Below, piece by piece: positions 1 through 47,638 of a stretch of 64,000 bases of DNA (its first letter is position 1; each line of letters starts with the position of its first letter). The position numbers and the translations under genes were made by a program. Under the pieces are notes generated by a model. The model had not been told where the DNA came from. It saw nothing but the letters and a program-made list of their open reading frames with translations, and ran no database searches. The DNA is taken from assembly GCA_964016885.1 (NCBI GenBank), contig OZ024753.1, positions 15,562,001 to 15,626,000 of the forward strand. Reading direction: 5' to 3'. This DNA is from Eledone cirrhosa (taxonomy: Eukaryota).

Positions 1-3000
1 CATATATGTATACTGAAATACTAGTATGTATATGAATACACACACGTATACATATGTAGATGTACCAAGTTTTTTTCACTGGTCACTTTACTGTGAGTGG
101 CCAGCTATTCCGTATGTAAACACACAGACAAACCGGTTTTTAGAGTCATACTGGTTTTTGAGGAAACACCTTTCCTCTATTCTCCAGAAAGCCAGACAAG
201 GAATATTGAACTAGTTTCGTTGTTGTTACAACTCATCAGCAATATTTACCTATCTTCCGGCCTCTCTAGAGAATCGTAAAAGCACATAGCGTTATATGCT
301 TTTTCTATGAAAATTAGTAGTGGGCAGACTAATTTGCATAGAGTGTGAGTAAGTACCGGTTCAACGGAGACGATAAAAACAAATAACGAAACGAAATTAA
401 ATTTCGTTTCGTTTGTAACTCACTTTTGTATGACTGACGCTTAAACAATTAAGTTAAAGATGTACATCCATATATGTATACTGAAATACTAGTATGTATA
501 TGAATACACACACGTATACATATGTAGATGTACCAAGTTTTTTTCACTGGTCACTTTACTGTGAGTGGCCAGCTATTCCGTATGTAAACACACAGACAAA
601 CCGGTTTTTAGAGTCATACTGGTTTTTGAGGAAACACCTTTCCTCTATTCTCCAGAAAGCCAGACAAGGAATATTGAACTAGTTTCGTTGTTGTTACAAC
701 TCATCAGCAATATTTACCTATCTTCCGGCCTCTCTAGAGAATCGTAAAAGCACATAGCGTTATATGCTTTTTCTATGAAAATTAGTAGTGGGCAGACTAA
801 TTTGCATAGAGTGTGAGTAAGTACCGGTTCAACGGAGACGATAAAAACAAATAACGAAACGAAATTAAATTTCGTTTCGTTTGTAACTCACTTTTGTATG
901 ACTGACGCTTAAACAATTAAGTTAAAGATGTACATCCATATATGTATACTGAAATACTAGTATGTATATGAATACACACACGTATACATATGTAGATGTA
1001 CCAAGTTTTTTTCACTGGTCACTTTACTGTGAGTGGCCAGCTATTCCGTATGTAAACACACAGACAAACCGGTTTTTAGAGTCATACTGGTTTTTGAGGA
1101 AACACCTTTCCTCTATTCTCCAGAAAGCCAGACAAGGAATATTGAACTAGTTTCGTTGTTGTTACAACTCATCAGCAATATTTACCTATCTTCCGGCCTC
1201 TCTAGAGAATCGTAAAAGCACATAGCGTTATATGCTTTTTCTATGAAAATTAGTAGTGGGCAGACTAATTTGCATAGAGTGTGAGTAAGTACCGGTTCAA
1301 CGGAGACGATAAAAACAAATAACGAAACGAAATTAAATTTCGTTTCGTTTGTAACTCACTTTTGTATGACTGACGCTTAAACAATTAAGTTAAAGATGTA
1401 CATCCATATATGTATACTGAAATACTAGTATGTATATGAATACACACACGTATACATATGTAGATGTACCAAGTTTTTTTCACTGGTCACTTTACTGTGA
1501 GTGGCCAGCTATTCCGTATGTAAACACACAGACAAACCGGTTTTTAGAGTCATACTGGTTTTTGAGGAAACACCTTTCCTCTATTCTCCAGAAAGCCAGA
1601 CAAGGAATATTGAACTAGTTTCGTTGTTGTTACAACTCATCAGCAATATTTACCTATCTTCCGGCCTCTCTAGAGAATCGTAAAAGCACATAGCGTTATA
1701 TGCTTTTTCTATGAAAATTAGTAGTGGGCAGACTAATTTGCATAGAGTGTGAGTAAGTACCGGTTCAACGGAGACGATAAAAACAAATAACGAAACGAAA
1801 TTAAATTTCGTTTCGTTTGTAACTCACTTTTGTATGACTGACGCTTAAACAATTAAGTTAAAGATGTACATCCATATATGTATACTGAAATACTAGTATG
1901 TATATGAATACACACACGTATACATATGTAGATGTACCAAGTTTTTTTCACTGGTCACTTTACTGTGAGTGGCCAGCTATTCCGTATGTAAACACACAGA
2001 CAAACCGGTTTTTAGAGTCATACTGGTTTTTGAGGAAACACCTTTCCTCTATTCTCCAGAAAGCCAGACAAGGAATATTGAACTAGTTTCGTTGTTGTTA
2101 CAACTCATCAGCAATATTTACCTATCTTCCGGCCTCTCTAGAGAATCGTAAAAGCACATAGCGTTATATGCTTTTTCTATGAAAATTAGTAGTGGGCAGA
2201 CTAATTTGCATAGAGTGTGAGTAAGTACCGGTTCAACGGAGACGATAAAAACAAATAACGAAACGAAATTAAATTTCGTTTCGTTTGTAACTCACTTTTG
2301 TATGACTGACGCTTAAACAATTAAGTTAAAGATGTACATCCATATATGTATACTGAAATACTAGTATGTATATGAATACACACACGTATACATATGTAGA
2401 TGTACCAAGTTTTTTTCACTGGTCACTTTACTGTGAGTGGCCAGCTATTCCGTATGTAAACACACAGACAAACCGGTTTTTAGAGTCATACTGGTTTTTG
2501 AGGAAACACCTTTCCTCTATTCTCCAGAAAGCCAGACAAGGAATATTGAACTAGTTTCGTTGTTGTTACAACTCATCAGCAATATTTACCTATCTTCCGG
2601 CCTCTCTAGAGAATCGTAAAAGCACATAGCGTTATATGCTTTTTCTATGAAAATTAGTAGTGGGCAGACTAATTTGCATAGAGTGTGAGTAAGTACCGGT
2701 TCAACGGAGACGATAAAAACAAATAACGAAACGAAATTAAATTTCGTTTCGTTTGTAACTCACTTTTGTATGACTGACGCTTAAACAATTAAGTTAAGGA
2801 TGTACATCCATATATGTATACTGAAATACTAGTATGTATATGAATACACACACGTATACATATGTAGATGTACCAAGTTTTTTTCACTGGTCACTTTACT
2901 GTGAGTGGCCAGCTATTCCGTATGTAAACACACAGACAAACCGGTTTTTAGAGTCATACTGGTTTTTGAGGAAACACCTTTCCTCTATTCTCCAGAAAGC

Positions 3001-5122
3001 CAGACAAGGAATATTGAACTAGTTTCGTTGTTGTTACAACTCATCAGCAATATTTACCTATCTTCCGGCCTCTCTAGAGAATCGTAAAAGCACATAGCGT
3101 TATATGCTTTTTCTATGAAAATTAGTAGTGGGCAGACTAATTTGCATAGAGTGTGAGTAAGTACCGGTTCAACGGAGACGATAAAAACAAATAACGAAAC
3201 GAAATTAAATTTCGTTTCGTTTGTAACTCACTTTTGTATGACTGACGCTTAAACAATTAAGTTAAAGATGTACATCCATATATGTATACTGAAATACTAG
3301 TATGTATATGAATACACACACGTATACATATGTAGATGTACCAAGTTTTTTTCACTGGTCACTTTACTGTGAGTGGCCAGCTATTCCGTATGTAAACACA
3401 CAGACAAACCGGTTTTTAGAGTCATACTGGTTTTTGAGGAAACACCTTTCCTCTATTCTCCAGAAAGCCAGACAAGGAATATTGAACTAGTTTCGTTGTT
3501 GTTACAACTCATCAGCAATATTTACCTATCTTCCGGCCTCTCTAGAGAATCGTAAAAGCACATAGCGTTATATGCTTTTTCTATGAAAATTAGTAGTGGG
3601 CAGACTAATTTGCATAGAGTGTGAGTAAGTACCGGTTCAACGGAGACGATAAAAACAAATAACGAAACGAAATTAAATTTCGTTTCGTTTGTAACTCACT
3701 TTTGTATGACTGACGCTTAAACAATTAAGTTAAAGATGTACATCCATATATGTATACTGAAATACTAGTATGTATATGAATACACACACGTATACATATG
3801 TAGATGTACCAAGTTTTTTTCACTGGTCACTTTACTGTGAGTGGCCAGCTATTCCGTATGTAAACACACAGACAAACCGGTTTTTAGAGTCATACTGGTT
3901 TTTGAGGAAACACCTTTCCTCTATTCTCCAGAAAGCCAGACAAGGAATATTGAACTAGTTTCGTTGTTGTTACAACTCATCAGCAATATTTACCTATCTT
4001 CCGGCCTCTCTAGAGAATCGTAAAAGCACATAGCGTTATATGCTTTTTCTATGAAAATTAGTAGTGGGCAGACTAATTTGCATAGAGTGTGAGTAAGTAC
4101 CGGTTCAACGGAGACGATAAAAACAAATAACGAAACGAAATTAAATTTCGTTTCGTTTGTAACTCACTTTTGTATGACTGACGCTTAAACAATTAAGTTA
4201 AAGATGTACATCCATATATGTATACTGAAATACTAGTATGTATATGAATACACACACGTATACATATGTAGATGTACCAAGTTTTTTTCACTGGTCACTT
4301 TACTGTGAGTGGCCAGCTATTCCGTATGTAAACACACAGACAAACCGGTTTTTAGAGTCATACTGGTTTTTGAGGAAACACCTTTCCTCTATTCTCCAGA
4401 AAGCCAGACAAGGAATATTGAACTAGTTTCGTTGTTGTTACAACTCATCAGCAATATTTACCTATCTTCCGGCCTCTCTAGAGAATCGTAAAAGCACATA
4501 GCGTTATATGCTTTTTCTATGAAAATTAGTAGTGGGCAGACTAATTTGCATAGAGTGTGAGTAAGTACCGGTTCAACGGAGACGATAAAAACAAATAACG
4601 AAACGAAATTAAATTTCGTTTCGTTTGTAACTCACTTTTGTATGACTGACGCTTAAACAATTAAGTTAAAGATGTACATCCATATATGTATACTGAAATA
4701 CTAGTATGTATATGAATACACACACGTATACATATGTAGATGTACCAAGTTTTTTTCACTGGTCACTTTACTGTGAGTGGCCAGCTATTCCGTATGTAAA
4801 CACACAGACAAACCGGTTTTTAGAGTCATACTGGTTTTTGAGGAAACACCTTTCCTCTATTCTCCAGAAAGCCAGACAAGGAATATTGAACTAGTTTCGT
4901 TGTTGTTACAACTCATCAGCAATATTTACCTATCTTCCGGCCTCTCTAGAGAATCGTAAAAGCACATAGCGTTATATGCTTTTTCTATGAAAATTAGTAG
5001 TGGGCAGACTAATTTGCATAGAGTGTGAGTAAGTACCGGTTCAACGGAGACGATAAAAACAAATAACGAAACGAAATTAAATTTCGTTTCGTTTGTAACT
5101 CACTTTTGTATGACTGACGCTT
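1..5122 (-). repeat. 468-bp tandem array, left arm (~11 monomers); candidate retrozyme, hammerhead on minus strand
   Basis: Exact 468-bp periodicity (ORF track repeats at 26, 494, 962...). One substitution noticed (2798 A>G). Runs off the window start. Confidence 0.97.
202..246 (-). ncRNA. Minimal type I hammerhead ribozyme (representative; repeats every 468 bp to 4882-4926, 11 copies)
   Basis: Exact reverse complement of the 5310-5354 motif. Confidence 0.88.
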
Positions 5123-5137
5123 TTGTATGACTGACGC

Positions 5138-8100
5138 TTACAAACGAAACGAAATTTAATTTCGTTTCGTTATTTGTTTTTATCGTCTCCGTTGAACCGG
5201 TACTTACTCACACTCTATGCAAATTAGTCTGCCCACTACTAATTTTCATAGAAAAAGCATATAACGCTATGTGCTTTTACGATTCTCTAGAGAGGCCGGA
5301 AGATAGGTAAATATTGCTGATGAGTTGTAACAACAACGAAACTAGTTCAATATTCCTTGTCTGGCTTTCTGGAGAATAGAGGAAAGGTGTTTCCTCAAAA
5401 ACCAGTATGACTCTAAAAACCGGTTTGTCTGTGTGTTTACATACGGAATAGCTGGCCACTCACAGTAAAGTGACCAGTGAAAAAAACTTGGTACATCTAC
5501 ATATGTATACGTGTGTGTATTCATATACATACTAGTATTTCAGTATACATATATGGATGTACATCTTTAACTTAATTGTTTAAGCGTCAGTCATACAAAA
5601 GTGAGTTACAAACGAAACGAAATTTAATTTCGTTTCGTTATTTGTTTTTATCGTCTCCGTTGAACCGGTACTTACTCACACTCTATGCAAATTAGTCTGC
5701 CCACTACTAATTTTCATAGAAAAAGCATATAACGCTATGTGCTTTTACGATTCTCTAGAGAGGCCGGAAGATAGGTAAATATTGCTGATGAGTTGTAACA
5801 ACAACGAAACTAGTTCAATATTCCTTGTCTGGCTTTCTGGAGAATAGAGGAAAGGTGTTTCCTCAAAAACCAGTATGACTCTAAAAACCGGTTTGTCTGT
5901 GTGTTTACATACGGAATAGCTGGCCACTCACAGTAAAGTGACCAGTGAAAAAAACTTGGTACATCTACATATGTATACGTGTGTGTATTCATATACATAC
6001 TAGTATTTCAGTATACATATATGGATGTACATCTTTAACTTAATTGTTTAAGCGTCAGTCATACAAAAGTGAGTTACAAACGAAACGAAATTTAATTTCG
6101 TTTCGTTATTTGTTTTTATCGTCTCCGTTGAACCGGTACTTACTCACACTCTATGCAAATTAGTCTGCCCACTACTAATTTTCATAGAAAAAGCATATAA
6201 CGCTATGTGCTTTTACGATTCTCTAGAGAGGCCGGAAGATAGGTAAATATTGCTGATGAGTTGTAACAACAACGAAACTAGTTCAATATTCCTTGTCTGG
6301 CTTTCTGGAGAATAGAGGAAAGGTGTTTCCTCAAAAACCAGTATGACTCTAAAAACCGGTTTGTCTGTGTGTTTACATACGGAATAGCTGGCCACTCACA
6401 GTAAAGTGACCAGTGAAAAAAACTTGGTACATCTACATATGTATACGTGTGTGTATTCATATACATACTAGTATTTCAGTATACATATATGGATGTACAT
6501 CTTTAACTTAATTGTTTAAGCGTCAGTCATACAAAAGTGAGTTACAAACGAAACGAAATTTAATTTCGTTTCGTTATTTGTTTTTATCGTCTCCGTTGAA
6601 CCGGTACTTACTCACACTCTATGCAAATTAGTCTGCCCACTACTAATTTTCATAGAAAAAGCATATAACGCTATGTGCTTTTACGATTCTCTAGAGAGGC
6701 CGGAAGATAGGTAAATATTGCTGATGAGTTGTAACAACAACGAAACTAGTTCAATATTCCTTGTCTGGCTTTCTGGAGAATAGAGGAAAGGTGTTTCCTC
6801 AAAAACCAGTATGACTCTAAAAACCGGTTTGTCTGTGTGTTTACATACGGAATAGCTGGCCACTCACAGTAAAGTGACCAGTGAAAAAAACTTGGTACAT
6901 CTACATATGTATACGTGTGTGTATTCATATACATACTAGTATTTCAGTATACATATATGGATGTACATCTTTAACTTAATTGTTTAAGCGTCAGTCATAC
7001 AAAAGTGAGTTACAAACGAAACGAAATTTAATTTCGTTTCGTTATTTGTTTTTATCGTCTCCGTTGAACCGGTACTTACTCACACTCTATGCAAATTAGT
7101 CTGCCCACTACTAATTTTCATAGAAAAAGCATATAACGCTATGTGCTTTTACGATTCTCTAGAGAGGCCGGAAGATAGGTAAATATTGCTGATGAGTTGT
7201 AACAACAACGAAACTAGTTCAATATTCCTTGTCTGGCTTTCTGGAGAATAGAGGAAAGGTGTTTCCTCAAAAACCAGTATGACTCTAAAAACCGGTTTGT
7301 CTGTGTGTTTACATACGGAATAGCTGGCCACTCACAGTAAAGTGACCAGTGAAAAAAACTTGGTACATCTACATATGTATACGTGTGTGTATTCATATAC
7401 ATACTAGTATTTCAGTATACATATATGGATGTACATCTTTAACTTAATTGTTTAAGCGTCAGTCATACAAAAGTGAGTTACAAACGAAACGAAATTTAAT
7501 TTCGTTTCGTTATTTGTTTTTATCGTCTCCGTTGAACCGGTACTTACTCACACTCTATGCAAATTAGTCTGCCCACTACTAATTTTCATAGAAAAAGCAT
7601 ATAACGCTATGTGCTTTTACGATTCTCTAGAGAGGCCGGAAGATAGGTAAATATTGCTGATGAGTTGTAACAACAACGAAACTAGTTCAATATTCCTTGT
7701 CTGGCTTTCTGGAGAATAGAGGAAAGGTGTTTCCTCAAAAACCAGTATGACTCTAAAAACCGGTTTGTCTGTGTGTTTACATACGGAATAGCTGGCCACT
7801 CACAGTAAAGTGACCAGTGAAAAAAACTTGGTACATCTACATATGTATACGTGTGTGTATTCATATACATACTAGTATTTCAGTATACATATATGGATGT
7901 ACATCTTTAACTTAATTGTTTAAGCGTCAGTCATACAAAAGTGAGTTACAAACGAAACGAAATTTAATTTCGTTTCGTTATTTGTTTTTATCGTCTCCGT
8001 TGAACCGGTACTTACTCACACTCTATGCAAATTAGTCTGCCCACTACTAATTTTCATAGAAAAAGCATATAACGCTATGTGCTTTTACGATTCTCTAGAG

Positions 8101-11100
8101 AGGCCGGAAGATAGGTAAATATTGCTGATGAGTTGTAACAACAACGAAACTAGTTCAATATTCCTTGTCTGGCTTTCTGGAGAATAGAGGAAAGGTGTTT
8201 CCTCAAAAACCAGTATGACTCTAAAAACCGGTTTGTCTGTGTGTTTACATACGGAATAGCTGGCCACTCACAGTAAAGTGACCAGTGAAAAAAACTTGGT
8301 ACATCTACATATGTATACGTGTGTGTATTCATATACATACTAGTATTTCAGTATACATATATGGATGTACATCTTTAACTTAATTGTTTAAGCGTCAGTC
8401 ATACAAAAGTGAGTTACAAACGAAACGAAATTTAATTTCGTTTCGTTATTTGTTTTTATCGTCTCCGTTGAACCGGTACTTACTCACACTCTATGCAAAT
8501 TAGTCTGCCCACTACTAATTTTCATAGAAAAAGCATATAACGCTATGTGCTTTTACGATTCTCTAGAGAGGCCGGAAGATAGGTAAATATTGCTGATGAG
8601 TTGTAACAACAACGAAACTAGTTCAATATTCCTTGTCTGGCTTTCTGGAGAATAGAGGAAAGGTGTTTCCTCAAAAACCAGTATGACTCTAAAAACCGGT
8701 TTGTCTGTGTGTTTACATACGGAATAGCTGGCCACTCACAGTAAAGTGACCAGTGAAAAAAACTTGGTACATCTACATATGTATACGTGTGTGTATTCAT
8801 ATACATACTAGTATTTCAGTATACATATATGGATGTACATCTTTAACTTAATTGTTTAAGCGTCAGTCATACAAAAGTGAGTTACAAACGAAACGAAATT
8901 TAATTTCGTTTCGTTATTTGTTTTTATCGTCTCCGTTGAACCGGTACTTACTCACACTCTATGCAAATTAGTCTGCCCACTACTAATTTTCATAGAAAAA
9001 GCATATAACGCTATGTGCTTTTACGATTCTCTAGAGAGGCCGGAAGATAGGTAAATATTGCTGATGAGTTGTAACAACAACGAAACTAGTTCAATATTCC
9101 TTGTCTGGCTTTCTGGAGAATAGAGGAAAGGTGTTTCCTCAAAAACCAGTATGACTCTAAAAACCGGTTTGTCTGTGTGTTTACATACGGAATAGCTGGC
9201 CACTCACAGTAAAGTGACCAGTGAAAAAAACTTGGTACATCTACATATGTATACGTGTGTGTATTCATATACATACTAGTATTTCAGTATACATATATGG
9301 ATGTACATCTTTAACTTAATTGTTTAAGCGTCAGTCATACAAAAGTGAGTTACAAACGAAACGAAATTTAATTTCGTTTCGTTATTTGTTTTTATCGTCT
9401 CCGTTGAACCGGTACTTACTCACACTCTATGCAAATTAGTCTGCCCACTACTAATTTTCATAGAAAAAGCATATAACGCTATGTGCTTTTACGATTCTCT
9501 AGAGAGGCCGGAAGATAGGTAAATATTGCTGATGAGTTGTAACAACAACGAAACTAGTTCAATATTCCTTGTCTGGCTTTCTGGAGAATAGAGGAAAGGT
9601 GTTTCCTCAAAAACCAGTATGACTCTAAAAACCGGTTTGTCTGTGTGTTTACATACGGAATAGCTGGCCACTCACAGTAAAGTGACCAGTGAAAAAAACT
9701 TGGTACATCTACATATGTATACGTGTGTGTATTCATATACATACTAGTATTTCAGTATACATATATGGATGTACATCTTTAACTTAATTGTTTAAGCGTC
9801 AGTCATACAAAAGTGAGTTACAAACGAAACGAAATTTAATTTCGTTTCGTTATTTGTTTTTATCGTCTCCGTTGAACCGGTACTTACTCACACTCTATGC
9901 AAATTAGTCTGCCCACTACTAATTTTCATAGAAAAAGCATATAACGCTATGTGCTTTTACGATTCTCTAGAGAGGCCGGAAGATAGGTAAATATTGCTGA
10001 TGAGTTGTAACAACAACGAAACTAGTTCAATATTCCTTGTCTGGCTTTCTGGAGAATAGAGGAAAGGTGTTTCCTCAAAAACCAGTATGACTCTAAAAAC
10101 CGGTTTGTCTGTGTGTTTACATACGGAATAGCTGGCCACTCACAGTAAAGTGACCAGTGAAAAAAACTTGGTACATCTACATATGTATACGTGTGTGTAT
10201 TCATATACATACTAGTATTTCAGTATACATATATGGATGTACATCTTTAACTTAATTGTTTAAGCGTCAGTCATACAAAAGTGAGTTACAAACGAAACGA
10301 AATTTAATTTCGTTTCGTTATTTGTTTTTATCGTCTCCGTTGAACCGGTACTTACTCACACTCTATGCAAATTAGTCTGCCCACTACTAATTTTCATAGA
10401 AAAAGCATATAACGCTATGTGCTTTTACGATTCTCTAGAGAGGCCGGAAGATAGGTAAATATTGCTGATGAGTTGTAACAACAACGAAACTAGTTCAATA
10501 TTCCTTGTCTGGCTTTCTGGAGAATAGAGGAAAGGTGTTTCCTCAAAAACCAGTATGACTCTAAAAACCGGTTTGTCTGTGTGTTTACATACGGAATAGC
10601 TGGCCACTCACAGTAAAGTGACCAGTGAAAAAAACTTGGTACATCTACATATGTATACGTGTGTGTATTCATATACATACTAGTATTTCAGTATACATAT
10701 ATGGATGTACATCTTTAACTTAATTGTTTAAGCGTCAGTCATACAAAAGTGAGTTACAAACGAAACGAAATTTAATTTCGTTTCGTTATTTGTTTTTATC
10801 GTCTCCGTTGAACCGGTACTTACTCACACTCTATGCAAATTAGTCTGCCCACTACTAATTTTCATAGAAAAAGCATATAACGCTATGTGCTTTTACGATT
10901 CTCTAGAGAGGCCGGAAGATAGGTAAATATTGCTGATGAGTTGTAACAACAACGAAACTAGTTCAATATTCCTTGTCTGGCTTTCTGGAGAATAGAGGAA
11001 AGGTGTTTCCTCAAAAACCAGTATGACTCTAAAAACCGGTTTGTCTGTGTGTTTACATACGGAATAGCTGGCCACTCACAGTAAAGTGACCAGTGAAAAA

Positions 11101-14100
11101 AACTTGGTACATCTACATATGTATACGTGTGTGTATTCATATACATACTAGTATTTCAGTATACATATATGGATGTACATCTTTAACTTAATTGTTTAAG
11201 CGTCAGTCATACAAAAGTGAGTTACAAACGAAACGAAATTTAATTTCGTTTCGTTATTTGTTTTTATCGTCTCCGTTGAACCGGTACTTACTCACACTCT
11301 ATGCAAATTAGTCTGCCCACTACTAATTTTCATAGAAAAAGCATATAACGCTATGTGCTTTTACGATTCTCTAGAGAGGCCGGAAGATAGGTAAATATTG
11401 CTGATGAGTTGTAACAACAACGAAACTAGTTCAATATTCCTTGTCTGGCTTTCTGGAGAATAGAGGAAAGGTGTTTCCTCAAAAACCAGTATGACTCTAA
11501 AAACCGGTTTGTCTGTGTGTTTACATACGGAATAGCTGGCCACTCACAGTAAAGTGACCAGTGAAAAAAACTTGGTACATCTACATATGTATACGTGTGT
11601 GTATTCATATACATACTAGTATTTCAGTATACATATATGGATGTACATCTTTAACTTAATTGTTTAAGCGTCAGTCATACAAAAGTGAGTTACAAACGAA
11701 ACGAAATTTAATTTCGTTTCGTTATTTGTTTTTATCGTCTCCGTTGAACCGGTACTTACTCACACTCTATGCAAATTAGTCTGCCCACTACTAATTTTCA
11801 TAGAAAAAGCATATAACGCTATGTGCTTTTACGATTCTCTAGAGAGGCCGGAAGATAGGTAAATATTGCTGATGAGTTGTAACAACAACGAAACTAGTTC
11901 AATATTCCTTGTCTGGCTTTCTGGAGAATAGAGGAAAGGTGTTTCCTCAAAAACCAGTATGACTCTAAAAACCGGTTTGTCTGTGTGTTTACATACGGAA
12001 TAGCTGGCCACTCACAGTAAAGTGACCAGTGAAAAAAACTTGGTACATCTACATATGTATACGTGTGTGTATTCATATACATACTAGTATTTCAGTATAC
12101 ATATATGGATGTACATCTTTAACTTAATTGTTTAAGCGTCAGTCATACAAAAGTGAGTTACAAACGAAACGAAATTTAATTTCGTTTCGTTATTTGTTTT
12201 TATCGTCTCCGTTGAACCGGTACTTACTCACACTCTATGCAAATTAGTCTGCCCACTACTAATTTTCATAGAAAAAGCATATAACGCTATGTGCTTTTAC
12301 GATTCTCTAGAGAGGCCGGAAGATAGGTAAATATTGCTGATGAGTTGTAACAACAACGAAACTAGTTCAATATTCCTTGTCTGGCTTTCTGGAGAATAGA
12401 GGAAAGGTGTTTCCTCAAAAACCAGTATGACTCTAAAAACCGGTTTGTCTGTGTGTTTACATACGGAATAGCTGGCCACTCACAGTAAAGTGACCAGTGA
12501 AAAAAACTTGGTACATCTACATATGTATACGTGTGTGTATTCATATACATACTAGTATTTCAGTATACATATATGGATGTACATCTTTAACTTAATTGTT
12601 TAAGCGTCAGTCATACAAAAGTGAGTTACAAACGAAACGAAATTTAATTTCGTTTCGTTATTTGTTTTTATCGTCTCCGTTGAACCGGTACTTACTCACA
12701 CTCTATGCAAATTAGTCTGCCCACTACTAATTTTCATAGAAAAAGCATATAACGCTATGTGCTTTTACGATTCTCTAGAGAGGCCGGAAGATAGGTAAAT
12801 ATTGCTGATGAGTTGTAACAACAACGAAACTAGTTCAATATTCCTTGTCTGGCTTTCTGGAGAATAGAGGAAAGGTGTTTCCTCAAAAACCAGTATGACT
12901 CTAAAAACCGGTTTGTCTGTGTGTTTACATACGGAATAGCTGGCCACTCACAGTAAAGTGACCAGTGAAAAAAACTTGGTACATCTACATATGTATACGT
13001 GTGTGTATTCATATACATACTAGTATTTCAGTATACATATATGGATGTACATCTTTAACTTAATTGTTTAAGCGTCAGTCATACAAAAGTGAGTTACAAA
13101 CGAAACGAAATTTAATTTCGTTTCGTTATTTGTTTTTATCGTCTCCGTTGAACCGGTACTTACTCACACTCTATGCAAATTAGTCTGCCCACTACTAATT
13201 TTCATAGAAAAAGCATATAACGCTATGTGCTTTTACGATTCTCTAGAGAGGCCGGAAGATAGGTAAATATTGCTGATGAGTTGTAACAACAACGAAACTA
13301 GTTCAATATTCCTTGTCTGGCTTTCTGGAGAATAGAGGAAAGGTGTTTCCTCAAAAACCAGTATGACTCTAAAAACCGGTTTGTCTGTGTGTTTACATAC
13401 GGAATAGCTGGCCACTCACAGTAAAGTGACCAGTGAAAAAAACTTGGTACATCTACATATGTATACGTGTGTGTATTCATATACATACTAGTATTTCAGT
13501 ATACATATATGGATGTACATCTTTAACTTAATTGTTTAAGCGTCAGTCATACAAAAGTGAGTTACAAACGAAACGAAATTTAATTTCGTTTCGTTATTTG
13601 TTTTTATCGTCTCCGTTGAACCGGTACTTACTCACACTCTATGCAAATTAGTCTGCCCACTACTAATTTTCATAGAAAAAGCATATAACGCTATGTGCTT
13701 TTACGATTCTCTAGAGAGGCCGGAAGATAGGTAAATATTGCTGATGAGTTGTAACAACAACGAAACTAGTTCAATATTCCTTGTCTGGCTTTCTGGAGAA
13801 TAGAGGAAAGGTGTTTCCTCAAAAACCAGTATGACTCTAAAAACCGGTTTGTCTGTGTGTTTACATACGGAATAGCTGGCCACTCACAGTAAAGTGACCA
13901 GTGAAAAAAACTTGGTACATCTACATATGTATACGTGTGTGTATTCATATACATACTAGTATTTCAGTATACATATATGGATGTACATCTTTAACTTAAT
14001 TGTTTAAGCGTCAGTCATACAAAAGTGAGTTACAAACGAAACGAAATTTAATTTCGTTTCGTTATTTGTTTTTATCGTCTCCGTTGAACCGGTACTTACT

Positions 14101-15873
14101 CACACTCTATGCAAATTAGCCTGCCCACTACTAATTTTCATAGAAAAAGCATATAACGCTATGTGCTTTTACGATTCTCTAGAGAGGCCGGAAGATAGGT
14201 AAATATTGCTGATGAGTTGTAACAACAACGAAACTAGTTCAATATTCCTTGTCTGGCTTTCTGGAGAATAGAGGAAAGGTGTTTCCTCAAAAACCAGTAT
14301 GACTCTAAAAACCGGTTTGTCTGTGTGTTTACATACGGAATAGCTGGCCACTCACAGTAAAGTGACCAGTGAAAAAAACTTGGTACATCTACATATGTAT
14401 ACGTGTGTGTATTCATATACATACTAGTATTTCAGTATACATATATGGATGTACATCTTTAACTTAATTGTTTAAGCGTCAGTCATACAAAAGTGAGTTA
14501 CAAACGAAACGAAATTTAATTTCGTTTCGTTATTTGTTTTTATCGTCTCCGTTGAACCGGTACTTACTCACACTCTATGCAAATTAGTCTGCCCACTACT
14601 AATTTTCATAGAAAAAGCATATAACGCTATGTGCTTTTACGATTCTCTAGAGAGGCCGGAAGATAGGTAAATATTGCTGATGAGTTGTAACAACAACGAA
14701 ACTAGTTCAATATTCCTTGTCTGGCTTTCTGGAGAATAGAGGAAAGGTGTTTCCTCAAAAACCAGTATGACTCTAAAAACCGGTTTGTCTGTGTGTTTAC
14801 ATACGGAATAGCTGGCCACTCACAGTAAAGTGACCAGTGAAAAAAACTTGGTACATCTACATATGTATACGTGTGTGTATTCATATACATACTAGTATTT
14901 CAGTATACATATATGGATGTACATCTTTAACTTAATTGTTTAAGCGTCAGTCATACAAAAGTGAGTTACAAACGAAACGAAATTTAATTTCGTTTCGTTA
15001 TTTGTTTTTATCGTCTCCGTTGAACCGGTACTTACTCACACTCTATGCAAATTAGTCTGCCCACTACTAATTTTCATAGAAAAAGCATATAACGCTATGT
15101 GCTTTTACGATTCTCTAGAGAGGCCGGAAGATAGGTAAATATTGCTGATGAGTTGTAACAACAACGAAACTAGTTCAATATTCCTTGTCTGGCTTTCTGG
15201 AGAATAGAGGAAAGGTGTTTCCTCAAAAACCAGTATGACTCTAAAAACCGGTTTGTCTGTGTGTTTACATACGGAATAGCTGGCCACTCACAGTAAAGTG
15301 ACCAGTGAAAAAAACTTGGTACATCTACATATGTATACGTGTGTGTATTCATATACATACTAGTATTTCAGTATACATATATGGATGTACATCTTTAACT
15401 TAATTGTTTAAGCGTCAGTCATACAAAAGTGAGTTACAAACGAAACGAAATTTAATTTCGTTTCGTTATTTGTTTTTATCGTCTCCGTTGAACCGGTACT
15501 TACTCACACTCTATGCAAATTAGTCTGCCCACTACTAATTTTCATAGAAAAAGCATATAACGCTATGTGCTTTTACGATTCTCTAGAGAGGCCGGAAGAT
15601 AGGTAAATATTGCTGATGAGTTGTAACAACAACGAAACTAGTTCAATATTCCTTGTCTGGCTTTCTGGAGAATAGAGGAAAGGTGTTTCCTCAAAAACCA
15701 GTATGACTCTAAAAACCGGTTTGTCTGTGTGTTTACATACGGAATAGCTGGCCACTCACAGTAAAGTGACCAGTGAAAAAAACTTGGTACATCTACATAT
15801 GTATACGTGTGTGTATTCATATACATACTAGTATTTCAGTATACATATATGGATGTACATCTTTAACTTAATT

Positions 15874-15878
<5 letters not shown>
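5138..15878 (+). repeat. 468-bp tandem array, inverted right arm (~23 monomers); candidate retrozyme, hammerhead on plus strand
   Basis: Reverse complement of the left-arm unit, same period. One substitution noticed (14120 T>C). Ends at ...ATTGTTTA running directly into (TA)n. Confidence 0.97.
5310..5354 (+). ncRNA. Minimal type I hammerhead ribozyme (representative; repeats every 468 bp to 15606-15650, 23 copies)
   Basis: AATATTG-CTGATGA-GTTGT(AACA)ACAAC-GAAA-CTAG-TT-CAATATT: 7-bp stem I, canonical core, 5-bp stem II, palindromic A-CTAG-T stem III, predicted cleavage after GUU. Confidence 0.88.
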
Positions 15879-17597
<1,719 letters not shown>

Positions 17598-18711
17598 GTG
17601 TGTGTGTGTGCGTGTGCGTGTGTGTGTGTAGGGAGAAACGGGTGCAGTTTATTTTCGGCAACAGCCATGAACTGAAAGACACTAAAGGGGAGAAAATTAG
17701 TAGGCGGCTTATTAGTGTAGTGCTGATTAGTAATGGATTATCGGCATTTGATAAAGAGGTGAAGTGCGTAGCACTTTTTGTTGGCACGAGAAATAGAGAT
17801 ATTGTTGCAATCAATTAGGTATTGAACATGAAAAAATACAATATATAACTGAGAGATGTTGGCAGCTACAGCTGAGATAAATATTAGTTGGTGGCAGACA
17901 ACGAGTGTCTGTGTTGAATGAGGGTGGAAGAATGATATAATCACTTTAAACTTAAGCGAACATCGTTTAAATTTGCAAATGGTAGATTTGTGAAACGATA
18001 TTTTGCGTTGAAAAAACAAATATAGATAAAGGGCTGATGTACGAAATAACCCATGTAAATTTTCTCAATTAATTGAAATTGGTATCTCAGTTTGGGAAAG
18101 AAAGTATTGTAAAAAAAAAAAAAATCTAGCGGCAATTTTTAGCAACTCTCAATTGGAAAAGGGGGAAATAATTTCATGAAATTAAAAATTGATTTCATAA
18201 TATTTAATTGACATGGGGGGAAATGTCTGATCTTTTGTAGCAGGCAACGTTACAGCTATTTCTGTATATTAGAGTGTGATCAGTGGAAAAATAGACCGAA
18301 ATATCCCGTTACAAGTGCTAGAAGATAAAGATTTGCTGTTGGGAAATTATGATTGAACTCTACTAGCAGCTAATGGCCTTTACGAATTATGGCTTTTCGA
18401 CGTGGGAGAACTCTCTCTCTCCTACCCCACCTACCTCCTGATTCCCTTGTCATCTTCTTATCGATATTAAAGATGAGAAGTAAACATCTATAAAAATAAT
18501 AGTAATGGTTTCTGATTTAGGCACAAGGCTAGCAATTATGGGGAAGGGGGGGAAGTCAATTAAATCGACCCCGTAAGGATGAAAGGCCAAGTAACCTCGG
18601 CGGGTTTTGAACACAGAACGTAAAGGGACATAACTCTATGCCGTTAAGCATGTTGTCCGACGCTCTACCAATACTTCCACTCCCCCAACCTCGACAACAA
18701 CAACAATATTG

Positions 18712-18757
<46 letters not shown>

Positions 18758-18760
<3 letters not shown>

Positions 18761-19352
18761 ACCTAGCCCAGACTCACTATAAGGGCTGGAGACATGATGT
18801 GATGGGCAGGGTGATCCACTGGCACCTATGCAAAGTAAACAATTTACCACATTCTGAGAAGTGGTATGAGCATAAGCCAGAGTCGGTGATAGTAAACGAT
18901 CAGGTGAAGGTGCTGTGGGATTTTAGGATACAGACGGACAAGAAACTGGAACACAATAGACCTGACCTGGTGGTTTTGGACAAGGAAAAAAGATCGTGCC
19001 TGATTGTGGATGTGGCCTGCCCATTCGACACGAGAGTGCAAGAGAAGGAGAGGGAGGAAATTAACCGATACCAGGACTTAAAGTGGGAGGTAAAAAGGAT
19101 TTGGAACTGCCATGAAGTCAAAGTGGTCCCGATTGTCATAGACGCACTAGGTACTATCTCAAAATGTTTCCAGGGATGGTTAAAGAAGATTGGCCCCGCC
19201 ACGCTTTTTGGAACGCTTCAAAGGGCATGCTTGCTGGGAACAGCAAGAACCCTCCGATACGTCCTGAATATCTGAGGCTGCAGGTAGCGGCTTGATATTC
19301 ATTTCAACAAACTTTCCAGTTAATTAACATCAGTGACTGAGACTCCAAGAAC
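18758..19352 (+). mobile_element. 5'-truncated R4/Dong-like non-LTR retrotransposon (restriction-like endonuclease domain plus 3' UTR)
   Basis: ORF 18709-19275 has RHD..., LWDFRIQTD, NRPDLVV...IVDVACP, EK...Y.DL and VVPIVIDALG motifs of RLE elements. Flanked on both sides by (TAA)n. Confidence 0.85.
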
Positions 19353-24112: not shown

Positions 24113-26800
24113 AACCACCCAAGCCAAGGTAACTCAGCCCTGCCAAGTCGGCCACCCAAGCCAAGGTAACTCAGCCCAGCCAGACCCGCCACCCAAGCCA
24201 GAGTAACTCAGCCCAGCCAGACCCGCCACCCAAGCCAGAGTAACTCAGCCCAGCCAGACCCAAGCCAGAGTAACTCAGCCCAGCCAGGTCAGCCACCCAA
24301 GCCAGAGTAACTCAGCCCAGCCAAGTCAGCCACCCAAGCCAGAGTAACTCAGCCCTGCCAGGTCAGCCACCCAAGCCAGAGTAACTCAGCCCAGCCAGGT
24401 CAGCCACCCAAGCCAGAGTAACTCAGCCCTGCCAGGTCAGCCACCCAAGCCAGAGTAACTCAGCCCAGCCAGGTCAGCCACCCAAGCCAGAGTAACTCAG
24501 CCCTGCCAGGTCAGCCACCCAAGCCAGAGTAACTCAGCCCAGCCAAGTCAGCCACCCAAGCCAGAGTAACTCAGCCCAGCCAGACCCGCCACCCAAGCCA
24601 GAGTAACTCAGCCCAGCCAGACCCAAGCCAGAGTAACTCAGCCCTGCCAGGTCAGCCACCCAAGCCAGAGTAACTCAGCCCAGCCAGGTCAGCCACCCAA
24701 GCCAGAGTAACTCAGCCCAGCCAGGTCAGCCACCCAAGCCAGAGTAACTCAGCCCAGCCTGACCCGCCACCCAAGCCAAGGTAGCTCAGCCCAGCCAGAC
24801 CCGGCACCCAAACCAGAGTAACTCAGCCCAGCCAGACCCGCCACTCAAGCCAGAGTAACTCAGCCCTGCCAGACCCGCCACCCAAGCCAAGGTAGCTCAG
24901 CCCAGCCAGACCCGCCACCCAAGCCAGAGTAACTCAGCCCTGCCAGGTCAGCCACCCAAGCCAGAGTAACTCAGCCCAGCCAGACCCGCCACCCAAGCCA
25001 GAGTAACTCAGCCCTGCCAGGTCAGCCACCCAAGCCAGAGTAACTCAGCCCTGCCAGACCCGCCACCCAAGCCAGAGTAACTCAGCCCAGCCAGGTCAGC
25101 CACCCAAGCCAGAGTAACTCAGCCCTGCCAGACCCGCCACCCAAGCCAGAGTAACTCAGCCCAGCCAGGTCAGCCACCCAAGCCAGAGTAACTCAGCCCT
25201 GCCAGACCCGCCACCCAAGCCAGAGTAACTCAGCCCTGCCAGACTCGCCACCCAAGCCAGAGTAACTCAGCCCAGCCAGACCCGCCACCCAAGCCAGAGT
25301 AACTCAGCCCTGCCAGACCCGCCACCCAAGCCAGAGTAACTCAGCCCAGCCAGGTCAGCCACCCAAGCCAGAGTAACTCAGCCCTGCCAGACCCGCCACC
25401 CAAGCCAGAGTAACTCAGCCCAGCCAGACCCGCCACCCAAGCCAGAGTAACTCAGCCCTGCCAGACCCGCCACCCAAGCCAGAGTAACTCAGCCCAGCCA
25501 GGTCAGCCACCCAAGCCAGAGTAACTCAGCCCTGCCATACCCGCCACCCAAGCCAGAGTAACTCAGCCCAGCCAGGTCAGCCACCCAAGCCAGAGTAACT
25601 CAGCCCTGCCATACCCGCCACCCAAGCCAGAGTAACTCAGCCCAGCCCTGCCAGACCCGCCACCCAAGCCAGAGTAACTCAGCCCAGCCAGACCCAAGCC
25701 AGAGTAACTCAGCCCTGCCAGGTCAGCCACCCAAGCCAGAGTAACTCAGCCCAGCCAGGTCAGCCACCCAAGCCAGAGTAACTCAGCCCAGCCAGGTCAG
25801 CCACCCAAGCCAGAGTAACTCAGCCCAGCCTGACCCGCCACCCAAGCCAAGGTAGCTCAGCCCAGCCAGACCCGGCACCCAAACCAGAGTAACTCAGCCC
25901 AGCCAGACCCGCCACTCAAGCCAGAGTAACTCAGCCCTGCCAGACCCGCCACCCAAGCCAAGGTAGCTCAGCCCAGCCAGACCCGCCACCCAAGCCAGAG
26001 TAACTCAGCCCAGCCAATCCCGCCACCCAAGCCAGAGTAACTCAGCCCTGCCAGGTCAGCCACCCAAGCCAGAGTAACTCAGCCCAGCCAGACCCGCCAC
26101 CCAAGCCAGAGTAACTCAGCCCTGCCAGGTCAGCCACCCAAGCCAGAGTAACTCAGCCCTGCCAGACCCGCCACCCAAGCCAGAGTAACTCAGCCCAGCC
26201 AGGTCAGCCACCCAAGCCAGAGTAACTCAGCCCTGCCAGACCCGCCACCCAAGCCAGAGTAACTCAGCCCTGCCAGACTCGCCACCCAAGCCAGAGTAAC
26301 TCAGCCCAGCCAGACCCGCCACCCAAGCCAGAGTAACTCAGCCCTGCCAGACCCGCCACCCAAGCCAGAGTAACTCAGCCCAGCCAGGTCAGCCACCCAA
26401 GCCAGAGTAACTCAGCCCTGCCAGACCCGCCACCCAAGCCAGAGTAACTCAGCCCAGCCAGACCCGCCACCCAAGCCAGAGTAACTCAGCCCTGCCAGAC
26501 CCGCCACCCAAGCCAGAGTAACTCAGCCCTGCCAGACCCGCCACCCAAGCCAGAGTAACTCAGCCCAGCCAGGTCAGCCACCCAAGCCAGAGTAACTCAG
26601 CCCTGCCATACCCGCCACCCAAGCCAGAGTAACTCAGCCCAGCCAGGTCAGCCACCCAAGCCAGAGTAACTCAGCCCTGCCATACCCGCCACCCAAGCCA
26701 GAGTAACTCAGCCCAGCCCTGCCAGACCCGCCACCCAAGCCAGAGTAACTCAGCCCTGCCAGACCCGCCACCCAAGCCAGAGTAACTCAGCCCAGCCAGA
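24113..26800. repeat. GC-rich 37-bp minisatellite (~70 units)
   Basis: Unit AGCCAGAGTAACTCAGCCC(A/T)GCCA(GGTCA/GACCC)GCCACCCA with interspersed variant types. Confidence 0.96.
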
Positions 26801-27571
26801 CGAACCTAGCAAGCCAAAGTAGATCAGTACTTATTCAGCCAGGTCAGAAACGCCAGCGTTTGTTTTCATTCAAAAGACAGAAAACAGCACCAGAATACCA
26901 ATAGCCTTCACTCGATACAACTCTCTTTTTCTTACAATCCTCGCTGGTTGTCATCTCGCTATATTTCCTCGATTTAAAATTACTTTCGCCGGTCCAACTC
27001 TGTTATATTCACCTCGCTATATTCCCTCTCTTCATTTATTCCTTATATCAAACTGAAGGCCTTTAGTATACCCGTTTTGAAGGGTCTCATCATATTGCCA
27101 ATTATATTCGTCTCCCTTTATTTACGTTCGAACAAATCTCTCAGTGTGTCCTTTGTGTTTCTTCTTTCAGAGAACTTTAGTTTGTTATCAATGATATCTG
27201 TAAGTACCTTGTGTTTACTTTATAGAGTAGTGTGGCAGTTTGCTGAAAGACGCCTGCATTGTGTATAGGAGCCTCGCATGTTTATCTGCTAATAGCTTTA
27301 GCTTTATAAGCTACTAATGCTCTAGAGGTGACTAGTTCACAGTTTTGCATAAAAGACAGATTATATAACCTGTCGTGGTAGCTGAAGAATCGCCATATTT
27401 TCTTGTGAGTGTGTCTTATAGCTTTATCTTTTCGTTGTGCTAGCTTTGCTAGCTTTTGAAGGAAAATGCACGCTGAGGTTGGTGTATATATATATATATA
27501 TATAAGTTGAAAAAAAAAATGAAAACGAAATTTCATTTCTCACTCTTAGTATGGCACTTACTTAAATGTAA

Positions 27572-28602: not shown

Positions 28603-28755
28603 ATATATAGTTATATATTTATTATAAAGAGTCGGGACACAACGGCTGAGCTCTTGCCGTTTCAACAGCTAGTTCCAGGGGGTCTGCAACTAGCTGTTGA
28701 TACGGCAAGAGCTCAGCCATCGGGTCCCGATTCTTTATATATATATATATATATT

Positions 28756-28801
<46 letters not shown>

Positions 28802-29797
28802 TAAAATAACAGATTAAAGTTTAAGCAAAGAATCGCTGCTTTCACCCTTAACGGAATCTTCTGAAACTAACAAAGTCAATCTGTAAACGCATAACTGGAT
28901 ATTTAAAAAACGTTGCAACCGGAGGAAGACAGGAAGACGATACTTTGGTTCGTGGAAACGTTCGCTGGCAAAGAACGGGAAAAAACGAATAAGATACGTC
29001 ATTAATAGGAGCGGTGAAAAACAATTACGCGCAAAGACAGAACCACGTTTATGGTATAAAAGAGGTCGTAGACTAATGTTCTCTTAGGTGGTGCATAGAG
29101 ACGTACTCTGGCAATGAACGAAAAAACGAAGATAATACGTCATATGTGCAGCGTGGAGAACAATAGCACGCAAAGACATAACCACGTAAATGGTATAGCA
29201 GAAGTCGTAGACTAAAATTCTAACAAGGAGACCAAATGAATCACCGCTACAGAGTTAAGAACAAAGTAAATAAATACAATACAGAAGTAATAGAAATAAA
29301 TAAATACATACACGCAAACAAATACGTACATACACAAGCATACGCAAAAACTTTCCATGGGTATAGAAAACCCCGCACATATAAATATGTGTGTGTGTGT
29401 ATGCGTGTATACAAATAAATAAATAATTATATAAACGTATATAAATAAATAAATACGTATATAACAAGCGCACACACATACCTTCATATAAACACACGAA
29501 TGTTCGGAGACGTAAGTCAACCAAAACATGAAGTACACATATACACACACCCGCCATACGTACGAACCTGCATACTCACACAGACGCAAAACTCCCGTAT
29601 ACACATAGCCAAACCATATGTACCAGAATATATAAAAATTATACGCCATACCAATCAAATATGCGTACGAGAAGGTATACGTACCTTCACAAAACATACG
29701 GGTAATATATACTTACCTATGCAAATAAGTAAAGGTATAAACAAAACATATACTAGGCTCCCACATCAAGACGTAAAATATCCACGTATAGATCGTA

Positions 29798-30395
29798 CTA
29801 TCCGTTAGGGTATAACGTGGGGCTGTAATACAGGAAAGTTTTGTGCAATTTATGTTTACAAGCCGAAATTGCCTCAGATTTTTTGTTTAAGATGTGGTCT
29901 GTGGCGTAGAGTATTTCCAGGGCCTCAGCGGCGCAGAGGTCACATGGTCTTTTATTTCCGTTATACGATCTAGCCCTAGCTAGGATCTCCCAGTGTAACT
30001 TATATTGGGTGTGGTTGTCTTTTAGACTCCAGATATAAGCTGAAAGTGACGTCATATTCCTTCTAAGAGGGTAACGAAAAGAATGGGTATGCATGTAAAG
30101 ACGCTGCTTGAAACTATTGGCGGTTAACCCTATGTAGGCCCTACGGGACGTGGGTGTTACAACCTTACATTTGTAGACAATGTTACTAGAGAGGCATTTC
30201 CCGGATAGGGGGCAATCAGCCCGATTCCTGCAATTACAGTTAGTACTAACTACAGGGTTGCACGTGTTTCTACGGCTAGGTAGTTTAGCTAAATTTGAAG
30301 CTGTGATGTTATGTGCAAGGTTAGGAGTCGTAGAGTAAGAAATTTTAATAGTATTTCTATTAAAAATTTTACTATGTTTATGTGTAGGGGGTTAA
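29798..30395 (-). pseudogene. Penelope-like retroelement fragment: linker plus GIY-YIG endonuclease
   Basis: Manual translation KIFNRNTIKISYS...CNCRNRADCPLSGKC...NIVYKC...AYIGLTANSFKQRLYMHTHSF...CDLCAAE...ILNKKSE...CKH. 5'-truncated at (TA)n. Confidence 0.88.
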
Positions 30396-47455: not shown

Positions 47456-47638
47456 TTTAAAATAATTTTTAAATAATTAAAATATACAGACATGTATAAA
47501 ATGTAAATTGAAACGGGAAGGCCCATATATATATGTGTGTGTATATATATAAATGTGTGTGTTTGTATACACATATATATATATGTATGTGTGTGTATAT
47601 ATTTGTGGGTGTATGTGATCTGTATACACTGGTCATAG

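What the first reader, a model, noticed from the sequence alone, without database searches (positions are those of the whole stretch)
1..15878. Giant retrozyme-like array: 34 copies of a 468-nt monomer, each with a type I hammerhead ribozyme
Seen: every monomer contains AATATTG-CTGATGA-GTTGTAACAACAAC-GAAA-CTAG-TT-CAATATT. Stem I extends through AGATAGG/CCTTGTCT and TTCTCTAGAGAGGCC/GGCTTTCTGGAGAA. Known: tandem short repeats with minimal type I hammerheads whose palindromic stem III works in dimers (newt satellite 2, schistosome SMalpha, metazoan non-LTR retrozymes) yield self-cleaved monomers and circular RNAs. Inference: this apparent satellite encodes a 468-nt self-cleaving, circularisable RNA, at the large end for such units and possibly undescribed in this lineage.
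Basis: partly seen in the sequence, partly recalled or inferred. Interest (0 to 1): 0.92.

Follow-up and report, generated by a model that had tools for sequence, protein, structure and literature searches.

The report
Octopod retrozyme with Penelope-type insertion ends
This repeat is one very recent insertion of a small, probably self-cutting RNA element, and its two back-to-back arms end at two fixed sites in a TA repeat, which points to Penelope-type jumping genes as the machinery that copies such RNAs into the genome.

Summary
In detail: 34 type I hammerhead cores at 468-nt spacing, nearly identical units, compensatory changes in the stems. The array is two head-to-head arms (14.1 and 23.0 units, 17.4 kb, starting 1.5 kb left of the window) inside one (TA)n tract. 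It is one insertion of a dispersed family (9,643 core matches; about 44,000 with two other families) in a genome with octopod markers. In 31 of 34 two-armed loci, one arm ends at unit position ~235 and the other at ~304. This matches the inverted copy plus 'tail' of Penelope-like elements (PLEs) and their two internal reverse-transcription start sites. A co-resident intact PLE builds the same architecture. Inner ends do not pile up at the cleavage site, so the template was a circle or an uncleaved multimer. Verdict: a non-LTR retrozyme, a known class, with genomic evidence for PLE mobilisation that I did not find in print. Unit size and copy number are within published ranges. Cleavage, expression and circles were not shown, and the partner PLE was not found.

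The parts
1..5122 (-). Inverted arm, 10.9 units in the window, 14.1 units (6,622 bp) in all. Its outer end lies 1,500 bases left of the window, at unit position 304 (site E2), against a 4.1-kb (TA)n tract.
5123..5137 (.). Inner junction: 15-nt insert that repeats the last bases of the inverted arm (17-bp tandem duplication 5103-5139); joins the 5' ends of both arms (unit positions 235 and 259).
5138..15878 (+). Forward arm, 23.0 units (10,741 bp), ending at unit position 235 (site E1).
5310..5354 (+). Type I hammerhead, first + copy: stem I 7 bp, CUGAUGA, stem II with loop UAACAA, GAAA, one-pair helix III with palindromic tetraloop, GUU triplet; predicted cleavage 5347|5348.
5341..5346 (+). 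Palindrome ACUAGU, the predicted intermolecular helix III of a double hammerhead (ACGCGU in family C).
5282..5377 (+). Extended stem I and basal stem that hold the two ends of the cleaved monomer together.
5348..5815 (+). One cleavage-to-cleavage unit, 468 nt, the predicted linear or circular RNA; no stop-free frame over 65 codons.
5583..5651 (+). 69-nt 'tail' between the two fixed end sites E1 (unit 235 = 5582) and E2 (unit 304 = 5651), shown in its first + copy; contains a 12-13-bp hairpin.
15879..17597 (.). (TA)n target tract, 1.7 kb; carries the same degenerate unit in the same orientation as the tract left of the insertion.

Best explanation
The array is one very recent insertion of a non-autonomous non-LTR retrozyme mobilised in trans by a Penelope-like element. 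Steps: (1) tandem copies are transcribed in hammerhead polarity [inferred]; (2) two hammerheads pair through the ACUAGU palindrome and cut after GUU to give 468-nt monomers whose ends are held together by stem I and are ligated into circles [inferred from structure and from other retrozymes]; (3) a PLE RT/GIY-YIG protein nicks both strands of a (TA)n tract, and each 3' end primes reverse transcription inside the RNA, one at E1 (~235) and the other at E2 (~304) [end pattern shown; enzyme inferred]; (4) each cDNA runs through the cleavage site for one to tens of units, most simply by going round a circle [read-through shown; circle inferred, about 60%]; (5) the two cDNAs are joined at variable points by microhomology or short templated inserts, giving head-to-head arms [junctions shown]; (6) long arms can grow further by local DNA duplication [suggested by arm-specific recurring variants].
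For: Ends: 76 of 84 arm 3' ends in 47 loci fall at E1 (35) or E2 (41); 6 elsewhere, 2 at the edge of a fetched stretch. 29 of 34 two-armed loci have one E1 and one E2 (one counted through a short jump piece), two more are completed, and none of the 34 has the same site twice. Coordinate sample on contig C1, not chosen by score: 46 of 76 E1 junctions have an E2 junction within 20 kb (about 2.4 expected), 45 facing outward, 1 inward. Genome-wide there are 2,014 exact E2-(TA)n junctions, control 0. A public run of unrecorded kind shows loose TA ends at 5582 and 5651 (it may be the source sample). Family B, about 70% identical, ends at the homologous sites. PLE hallmarks in print: inverted 5'-truncated copy plus tail (PMC8557442); both strands cut and extended, RT starting at two internal sites that bound the tail (PMC11167929). 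A PLE with many 821-codon open frames in this genome (RT, linker CxC, GIY-YIG motifs; Atlas neighbours with RVT_1 and GIY-YIG) forms full-length 3.9-kb tandems, inverted arms and two fixed ends in (TA)n. Ribozyme under selection: 12 of 18 pairs show two-sided changes, 92% of cells pair, 0 of 500 shuffles reach it, slid controls 34-50%. Inner 5' ends: 2 of 50 within 5 nt of the cleavage site, 1.07 expected. Both arms share variants seen at no other listed locus in L027, L039, L043 and L097.
Against: No cleavage, transcript or circle was shown. In Xenopus only 1 of 9 predicted dimers cleaved in vitro. The purified Anolis PLE used uncleaved RNA and did not need its hammerhead. The partner PLE was not found: a profile of five retrozyme units matched only TA/TG-rich stretches in the 9 PLE 3' or pLTR regions held. 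L027 has one variant at units 3 and 6 but not at unit 0 of one arm and at unit 2 of the other, which does not fit a strict monomer or trimer circle. Variants recur within one arm only at C3:113.97 Mb (136A>C in 7 of 26 units, 0 of 8 in the other arm), at C1:5.74 Mb and in L091. Two outward E1-E1 pairs occur in the C1 sample, and 30 of 76 E1 junctions had no exact E2 match nearby. The 69-nt tail is longer than the 30-40 bp reported. In the predicted circle the CUG of the core pairs with UAG of helix III (probability about 0.9), so the monomer is not in the active fold. The rows of the covariation test are related, which inflates the shuffle control.
Confidence: 0.7

Rival explanations
1. Same PLE machinery and same two priming sites, but the template is an uncleaved linear read-through transcript of an existing array (or repeated template jumps), not a circle. 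The hammerhead then serves RNA end processing or is kept from the parent pLTR.
For: Uncleaved RNA was the main substrate of the Anolis PLE. The L027 variant pattern fits a linear multimer better than a circle. Recurring variants in long arrays. Read-through of the cleavage site fits this equally well.
Against: Many arrays carry one haplotype in every unit of both arms (13 of 13 units with three private changes in L097; 33 of 35 identical here), which is simplest with a monomer bottleneck. A 23-unit arm needs an uncut transcript of over 10.7 kb with 23 intact cores. Stems and palindrome covary across three families.
Confidence: 0.3
2. Insertions start short (1-3 units) by PLE retrotransposition, and the long arrays, this one included, arise afterwards by DNA-level tandem duplication.
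For: Heavy tail of lengths: median 2.2 units, 5 of 45 pairs at 18-31 units by end-to-end distance (one of these reuses an E2 already paired). Higher-order variant patterns restricted to one arm.
Against: Both arms of this insertion are long (14 and 23 units) with only 2 differences in 17,363 bp, neither repeated, which leaves little time. The autonomous PLE also forms full-length tandems. Not exclusive of the best explanation.
Confidence: 0.3
3. An ordinary satellite DNA with a dead or chance hammerhead, spread and inverted by DNA recombination or fold-back.
For: Below the Rfam gathering score; GUU triplet; no RNA evidence.
Against: 9,643 core matches against 3 in the control; compensatory changes; fold-back would give mirror-image ends and inverted flanks, but the ends differ (235 vs 304) and the flanking tract keeps one orientation (30 and 23 forward units, 0 reversed).
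Confidence: 0.04
4. Assembly artefact (collapsed or mirrored long reads).
For: Near-perfect identity; palindromic layout; long TA tracts.
Against: The same two ends recur at dozens of loci on many contigs with locus-specific haplotypes and junctions and in diverged families. The exact unit count at this locus was not checked against reads.
Confidence: 0.02

Closest known systems
Metazoan non-LTR retrozymes (coral, mussel, axolotl; Cervera and de la Pena 2020, PMC7229834; vertebrate survey, bioRxiv 10.64898/2026.07.22.740005)
   Same: Non-coding tandem units of a few hundred nt, GC under 45%, one type I hammerhead per unit, highly self-paired, thousands of dispersed copies, co-existing with PLEs.
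   Different: Here insertions are head-to-head pairs of arms with two fixed outer ends in (TA)n. The main texts I read describe head-to-tail tandems and larger target duplications and do not report this layout. No cephalopod is treated there. Circles are shown for those species, not here.
Axolotl HHR_Amex1 / newt satellite 2 hammerhead
   Same: Helix III of one pair capped by a palindromic tetraloop, retained loop 1-loop 2 elements, dimer cleavage expected.
   Different: Different sequence and phylum; GUU triplet in this subfamily (GUC and GUA in others); activity untested.
EN+ Penelope-like elements (Poseidon of Anolis, PMC11167929; Neptune/Nematis/Naiad, PMC8557442)
   Same: Inverted 5'-truncated copy, tail between two internal RT start sites, AT-rich or (TA)n targets, tandem copies, hammerhead.
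   Different: No ORF; 69-nt tail; no sequence homology to the PLE ends examined; each arm takes one site, which was not resolved in vitro (no strand difference reported).
Non-autonomous Chlamys elements such as MRC1 (passage) and L1 twin priming (recalled, not read)
   Same: Non-autonomous PLE passengers with multicopy head-to-tail insertions; two target strands priming on one RNA to give an inversion.
   Different: Chlamys/Naiad-type PLEs lack canonical hammerheads; L1 second priming is at variable sites, here both sites are fixed.

Membership tests
Type I hammerhead ribozyme | Core CUGANGA, GAAA and NUH around a three-way junction with open stem I | tested here: met
   core columns invariant; H17 is U, C or A in all 23 recurring variants
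Type I hammerhead ribozyme | Stems I and II supported by covariation | tested here: met
   7 of 10 and 4 of 5 pairs with two-sided changes; pairs 7-51 and 21-34 are U.U in 15 of 26 rows
Type I hammerhead ribozyme | Stable helix III in the monomer | tested here: not met
   one A-U pair plus CUAG tetraloop; palindrome kept (CGCG in family C), and cofolding two copies pairs it between molecules
Type I hammerhead ribozyme | Rfam gathering score | tested here: not met
   HH9 37.7 bits against 52, E 1.1e-7
Type I hammerhead ribozyme | Self-cleavage | not testable with these tools
   needs in vitro assay
Non-LTR retrozyme | Tandem units of a few hundred nt, each with a type I hammerhead, GC under 45% | tested here: met
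   (GC 0.35)
Non-LTR retrozyme | Non-coding | tested here: met
   longest stop-to-stop frame 65 codons; no frame open round the unit
Non-LTR retrozyme | Dispersed multicopy mobile family | tested here: met
Non-LTR retrozyme | Highly self-paired unit RNA | tested here: met
   z -9.2; 66% paired as a circle
Non-LTR retrozyme | Expressed as linear and circular monomers | tested here: inconclusive
   no RNA holder listed; laid runs are of unrecorded kind
Non-LTR retrozyme | Target-site duplication | tested here: inconclusive
   not definable inside (TA)n
PLE-mobilised non-autonomous element | Inverted 5'-truncated copy next to the forward copy | tested here: met
   34 two-armed junctions among 47 loci
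PLE-mobilised non-autonomous element | Tail at one end only (two fixed termini) | tested here: met
   69 nt rather than 30-40
PLE-mobilised non-autonomous element | Co-resident intact EN+ PLE with the same target and architecture | tested here: met
   Pfam and PDB sequence searches of the protein gave nothing significant
PLE-mobilised non-autonomous element | Sequence homology to the pLTR of an autonomous partner | tested here: inconclusive
   none in the 9 PLE regions held; most PLE families of the genome were not examined
Plant LTR retrozyme | Type III hammerhead in LTRs, PBS, PPT, 4-bp TSD | tested here: not met
   type I geometry, tandem units, no LTR pair

The most novel reading that the evidence does not exclude
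Each insertion is the direct record of twin-primed rolling-circle reverse transcription: a PLE dimer grips one ribozyme-made 468-nt RNA circle, each nicked target strand primes at its own fixed site 69 nt apart, and both run round the circle, writing up to 17 kb of palindromic array in one event. This would explain the PLE inverted repeat and tail, show a circular RNA as a chromosomal retrotransposition template in an animal, and suggest that the 3.9-kb autonomous PLE tandems arise the same way.
Probability: 0.4. Interest if true: 0.82.

Novelty: new variant of a known kind. Interest (0 to 1): 0.6.

Why it matters
That PLEs mobilise animal retrozymes has so far rested on shared ribozymes, co-occurrence and pLTR phylogeny, and how PLEs make their inverted repeats and tail is stated as open. 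Here thousands of young insertions carry the PLE footprint on a retrozyme, with a one-site-per-arm rule that ties the two in vitro start sites to the two target strands. A 468-nt substrate, a (TA)n target and intact PLE ORFs in one genome make the mechanism, and the role of the circle, directly testable. About 44,000 hammerhead motifs in three families also make this a sizeable class of cephalopod repeats and a possible source of abundant circular RNA and long double-stranded RNA.

Tried and rejected
Rfam at gathering scores: no hit. Sequencing runs: no RNA holder listed. Four of the six listed runs were laid; all are contigs of unrecorded kind. In two (X4, X6) one haplotype closes on itself after 468 nt, which tandem DNA gives as well, so this is not used. 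Partner PLE: looked at PLE fragments beside retrozymes; these are independent insertions nested in the same TA tracts, and a profile search of 9 PLE end regions gave only low-complexity hits. A second PLE family was listed without flanks, so its full ends were seen only in two held loci. Pfam and PDB sequence searches did not classify the PLE protein; no structure model was obtained. Homologue searches returned unnamed proteins. A strict trimer circle for L027 was considered and rejected. Coding or rolling-circle translation rejected. No hammerhead core in the opposite polarity. Fold-back duplication rejected. Junction analysis resolved 25 of 34 junctions; 9 failed on seeds and were left out. 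One paper search on a misremembered name gave unrelated papers. Three look-ups in earlier scan findings were blank.
Full report
OBSERVATION. The window begins inside a 468-bp repeat. Tandem Repeats Finder splits it into 1-5122 and 5138-15878, and the two parts face opposite ways: 11 hammerhead cores on the minus strand and 23 on the plus strand, all 468 nt apart; 30 of 32 complete units are identical. Rfam gives HH9 at 37.7 bits, E 1.1e-7, under the gathering score, so a standard scan misses it. The cleavage-to-cleavage unit folds at -154.9 kcal/mol, z -9.2, with its ends paired in stem I. It is non-coding and has no core in the other polarity.

THE WHOLE LOCUS. With the neighbouring DNA, the minus arm starts 1,500 bases left of the window. 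The insertion is 14.1 + 23.0 units, 17.4 kb, 37 cores, with two base differences in 17,363 bp. It sits in TA tracts of 4.1 and 1.7 kb that carry the same degenerate unit in one orientation on both sides. It is therefore one young insertion into one microsatellite. Numbering the unit from the base after the cut (window 5348 = 1), the outer ends are 304 (left) and 235 (right); the inner ends, 235 and 259, are joined by a 15-nt insert copied from the adjacent arm.

THE FAMILY. The unit has at least 250 matches, those listed at 99-100% identity on many contigs. A core pattern gives 9,643 matches against 3 for the control. A second family (B, 420-516 nt, about 70% identical over aligned columns) gives 30,747 against 34 (the 100 listed matches are all of this type), and a third (C, 310 nt) 3,517 against 0. 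The host has molluscan haemocyanin, in three genes with seven units each on C1, and at least 121 protocadherin-type domains in clusters. From recalled knowledge this means a coleoid cephalopod, probably an octopod.

THE RIBOZYME IS UNDER SELECTION. Across 26 variants of the three families (18 seen at least twice plus 8 single ones; 18 other single rows left out), 92.1% of cells pair and 12 of 18 pairs change on both sides; no shuffle of 500 reaches this and slid controls pair at 34-50%. The rows are related, so the shuffle test overstates the case. Loop 2 is UAACAA or UAAUAA in all 23 recurring variants and the stem I bulge is GGUA in 22 of 23. Helix III is one pair with a palindromic tetraloop, CUAG or CGCG, and cofolding two copies pairs it between molecules. 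This is the layout given for axolotl HHR_Amex1, which cleaves well only as a dimer. It is not the 'minimal' PLE type defined as lacking helix III or the tertiary loops. In the predicted circle stems I and II form, but the core is partly mispaired.

TWO FIXED ENDS. In 47 loci (27 from the best-scoring list or the window, 20 from the first pattern hits on C1), 76 of 84 arm 3' ends lie at 228-237 (E1) or 299-306 (E2), nearly all against (TA)n. Of 34 minus-then-plus junctions, 29 have one E1 and one E2, two more are completed, three are irregular, and none has one site twice. In a coordinate sample on C1, 46 of 76 E1 junctions have an E2 junction within 20 kb (2.4 expected); 45 face outward; the median span is 1.0 kb. 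Two outward E1-E1 pairs also occur, so the rule is strong, not absolute. There are 2,014 exact E2-(TA)n junctions in the genome; the E1 pattern gives 740 on one strand, its other-strand count being inflated by overlaps. Family B ends at the homologous sites. Inner ends are scattered: 2 of 50 within 5 nt of the cut, 1.07 expected; of 25 resolved junctions 8 show 1-6 nt of microhomology, 3 are blunt and 14 have 8-20-nt inserts (some inserts may be nearby mismatches).

WHAT MAKES SUCH ENDS. PLE insertions typically have an inverted 5'-truncated copy and a 30-40-bp tail at one end (PMC8557442, passages). The purified Anolis PLE cuts and extends both strands of AT-rich DNA and starts at two internal RNA sites that bound the tail; hammerhead mutants still inserted (PMC11167929, main text read). 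This genome holds a PLE with many 821-codon open frames. Its protein shows RT, linker CxC, GIY-YIG and CCHH-like motifs (motif names and recall) and has Atlas neighbours with RVT_1 and GIY-YIG. It has its own hammerhead and forms full-length 3.9-kb tandems, inverted arms and two fixed ends about 85 nt apart in (TA)n. Its pLTR is not homologous to the retrozyme, nor are eight other PLE end regions held, so the actual partner is unidentified.

CIRCLE OR MULTIMER. cDNA synthesis ran through the cleavage site, so the template was a circle or an uncut multimer. For a circle: one haplotype fills every unit of both arms at many loci, with variants seen at no other listed locus in L027, L039, L043 and L097. 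Against a simple circle: the L027 pattern is not periodic from the outer end, and long older arms show recurring variants in one arm only, which points to later DNA duplication or multimeric templates. I put the circle at about 60%. Expression is untested: no RNA run was listed and the laid runs are of unrecorded kind.

COMPARISON AND NOVELTY. Non-LTR retrozymes are known from coral, mussel and axolotl, with circles shown and PLE mobilisation proposed (PMC7229834, parts 2-4 of 6 read; the words octopus, cephalopod and inverted do not occur; its supplement could not be read, and may list further species). A 2026 preprint derives them from PLE pLTRs by co-occurrence and phylogeny, gives units of 51-972 bp and arrays up to 300, and found cleavage in 1 of 9 dimers (10.64898/2026.07.22.740005, parts 1-3 of 5 read; supplements not seen). 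A review was seen in passages (PMC7761336). The giant squid paper counts 235 Rfam hammerhead matches without analysis (PMC6962438, passage). Searches showed no paper on cephalopod retrozymes or on head-to-head, two-site ends in retrozymes; subscription journals and Repbase were not searched, where the family may be listed as a non-autonomous Penelope. Newt dimer cleavage and the PLE dimer hammerheads were seen only as references; L1 twin priming is recalled.

VERDICT. A real non-LTR retrozyme, probably with an active dimer hammerhead, in a lineage where I found none described. Size and copy number are ordinary for the class. The value lies in the insertion architecture, which ties retrozymes to PLE chemistry and makes the two-site, two-strand model testable. 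Interest 0.6.

Noticed in passing
window 21625 (-), 27818 (-), 27984 (+), 28398 (+), 36336 (-), 40529 (-), 59781 (+), 59973 (+): Further hammerhead-like motifs of PLE type with palindromic helix III; 27818/27984 form an inverted pair. 21625 belongs to the PLE family of L085/L161 and ends at its first fixed site.
   Followed up: partly
window about 28750-30391 (-); L080:3150-5440: 3' part of another PLE (GIY-YIG, 3' UTR) ending in (TA)n. Near its end is a hammerhead-like fold whose core reads CAGAAGA rather than CUGANGA, seen the same in L041, L080 and L129: a possible variant or dead core.
   Followed up: no
L160, L161, L162, L163, L169: Autonomous PLE in full-length head-to-tail tandems of about 3.9 kb with 821-codon open frames, some with inverted arms; looks recently active.
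   Followed up: partly
L172:4640-6500; G000:C1:36482097-36490618: Third retrozyme family, 310 nt, core CUGAAGA, palindrome ACGCGU, 3,517 exact motifs, also with inverted arms.
   Followed up: partly
L042, L090, L146, L170-L175: Family B retrozymes (about 30,000 motifs) with a U.U pair at the base of stem II in most copies and an internal (TA)n that varies unit to unit.
   Followed up: partly
L091: Array in which a palindrome-breaking helix III variant recurs in alternate units over part of the arm; could reflect uncleaved dimers or later duplication.
   Followed up: partly
L081:7711-8273: One insertion lies in a (CAT)n tract rather than (TA)n.
   Followed up: no
window 51349-54788 (-): Broken Helitron-like ORFs (Rep and PIF1-type helicase motifs, recognised from recall).
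   Followed up: no
window 24115-26801, 46542-47457, 60779-61099, 61422-61751, 63677-64000: Other minisatellites (37, 42, 26-54 and 16-33 bp periods) and 2.7 tandem copies of a 127-bp SINE-like repeat common in the fetched loci.
   Followed up: no
window 18634-19275 (+): C-terminal fragment of a restriction-endonuclease-like non-LTR retrotransposon ORF (recalled motif).
   Followed up: no
G000:C26:21933048-22016816: Two haemocyanin genes in inverted orientation, each with an extra broken unit match.
   Followed up: no
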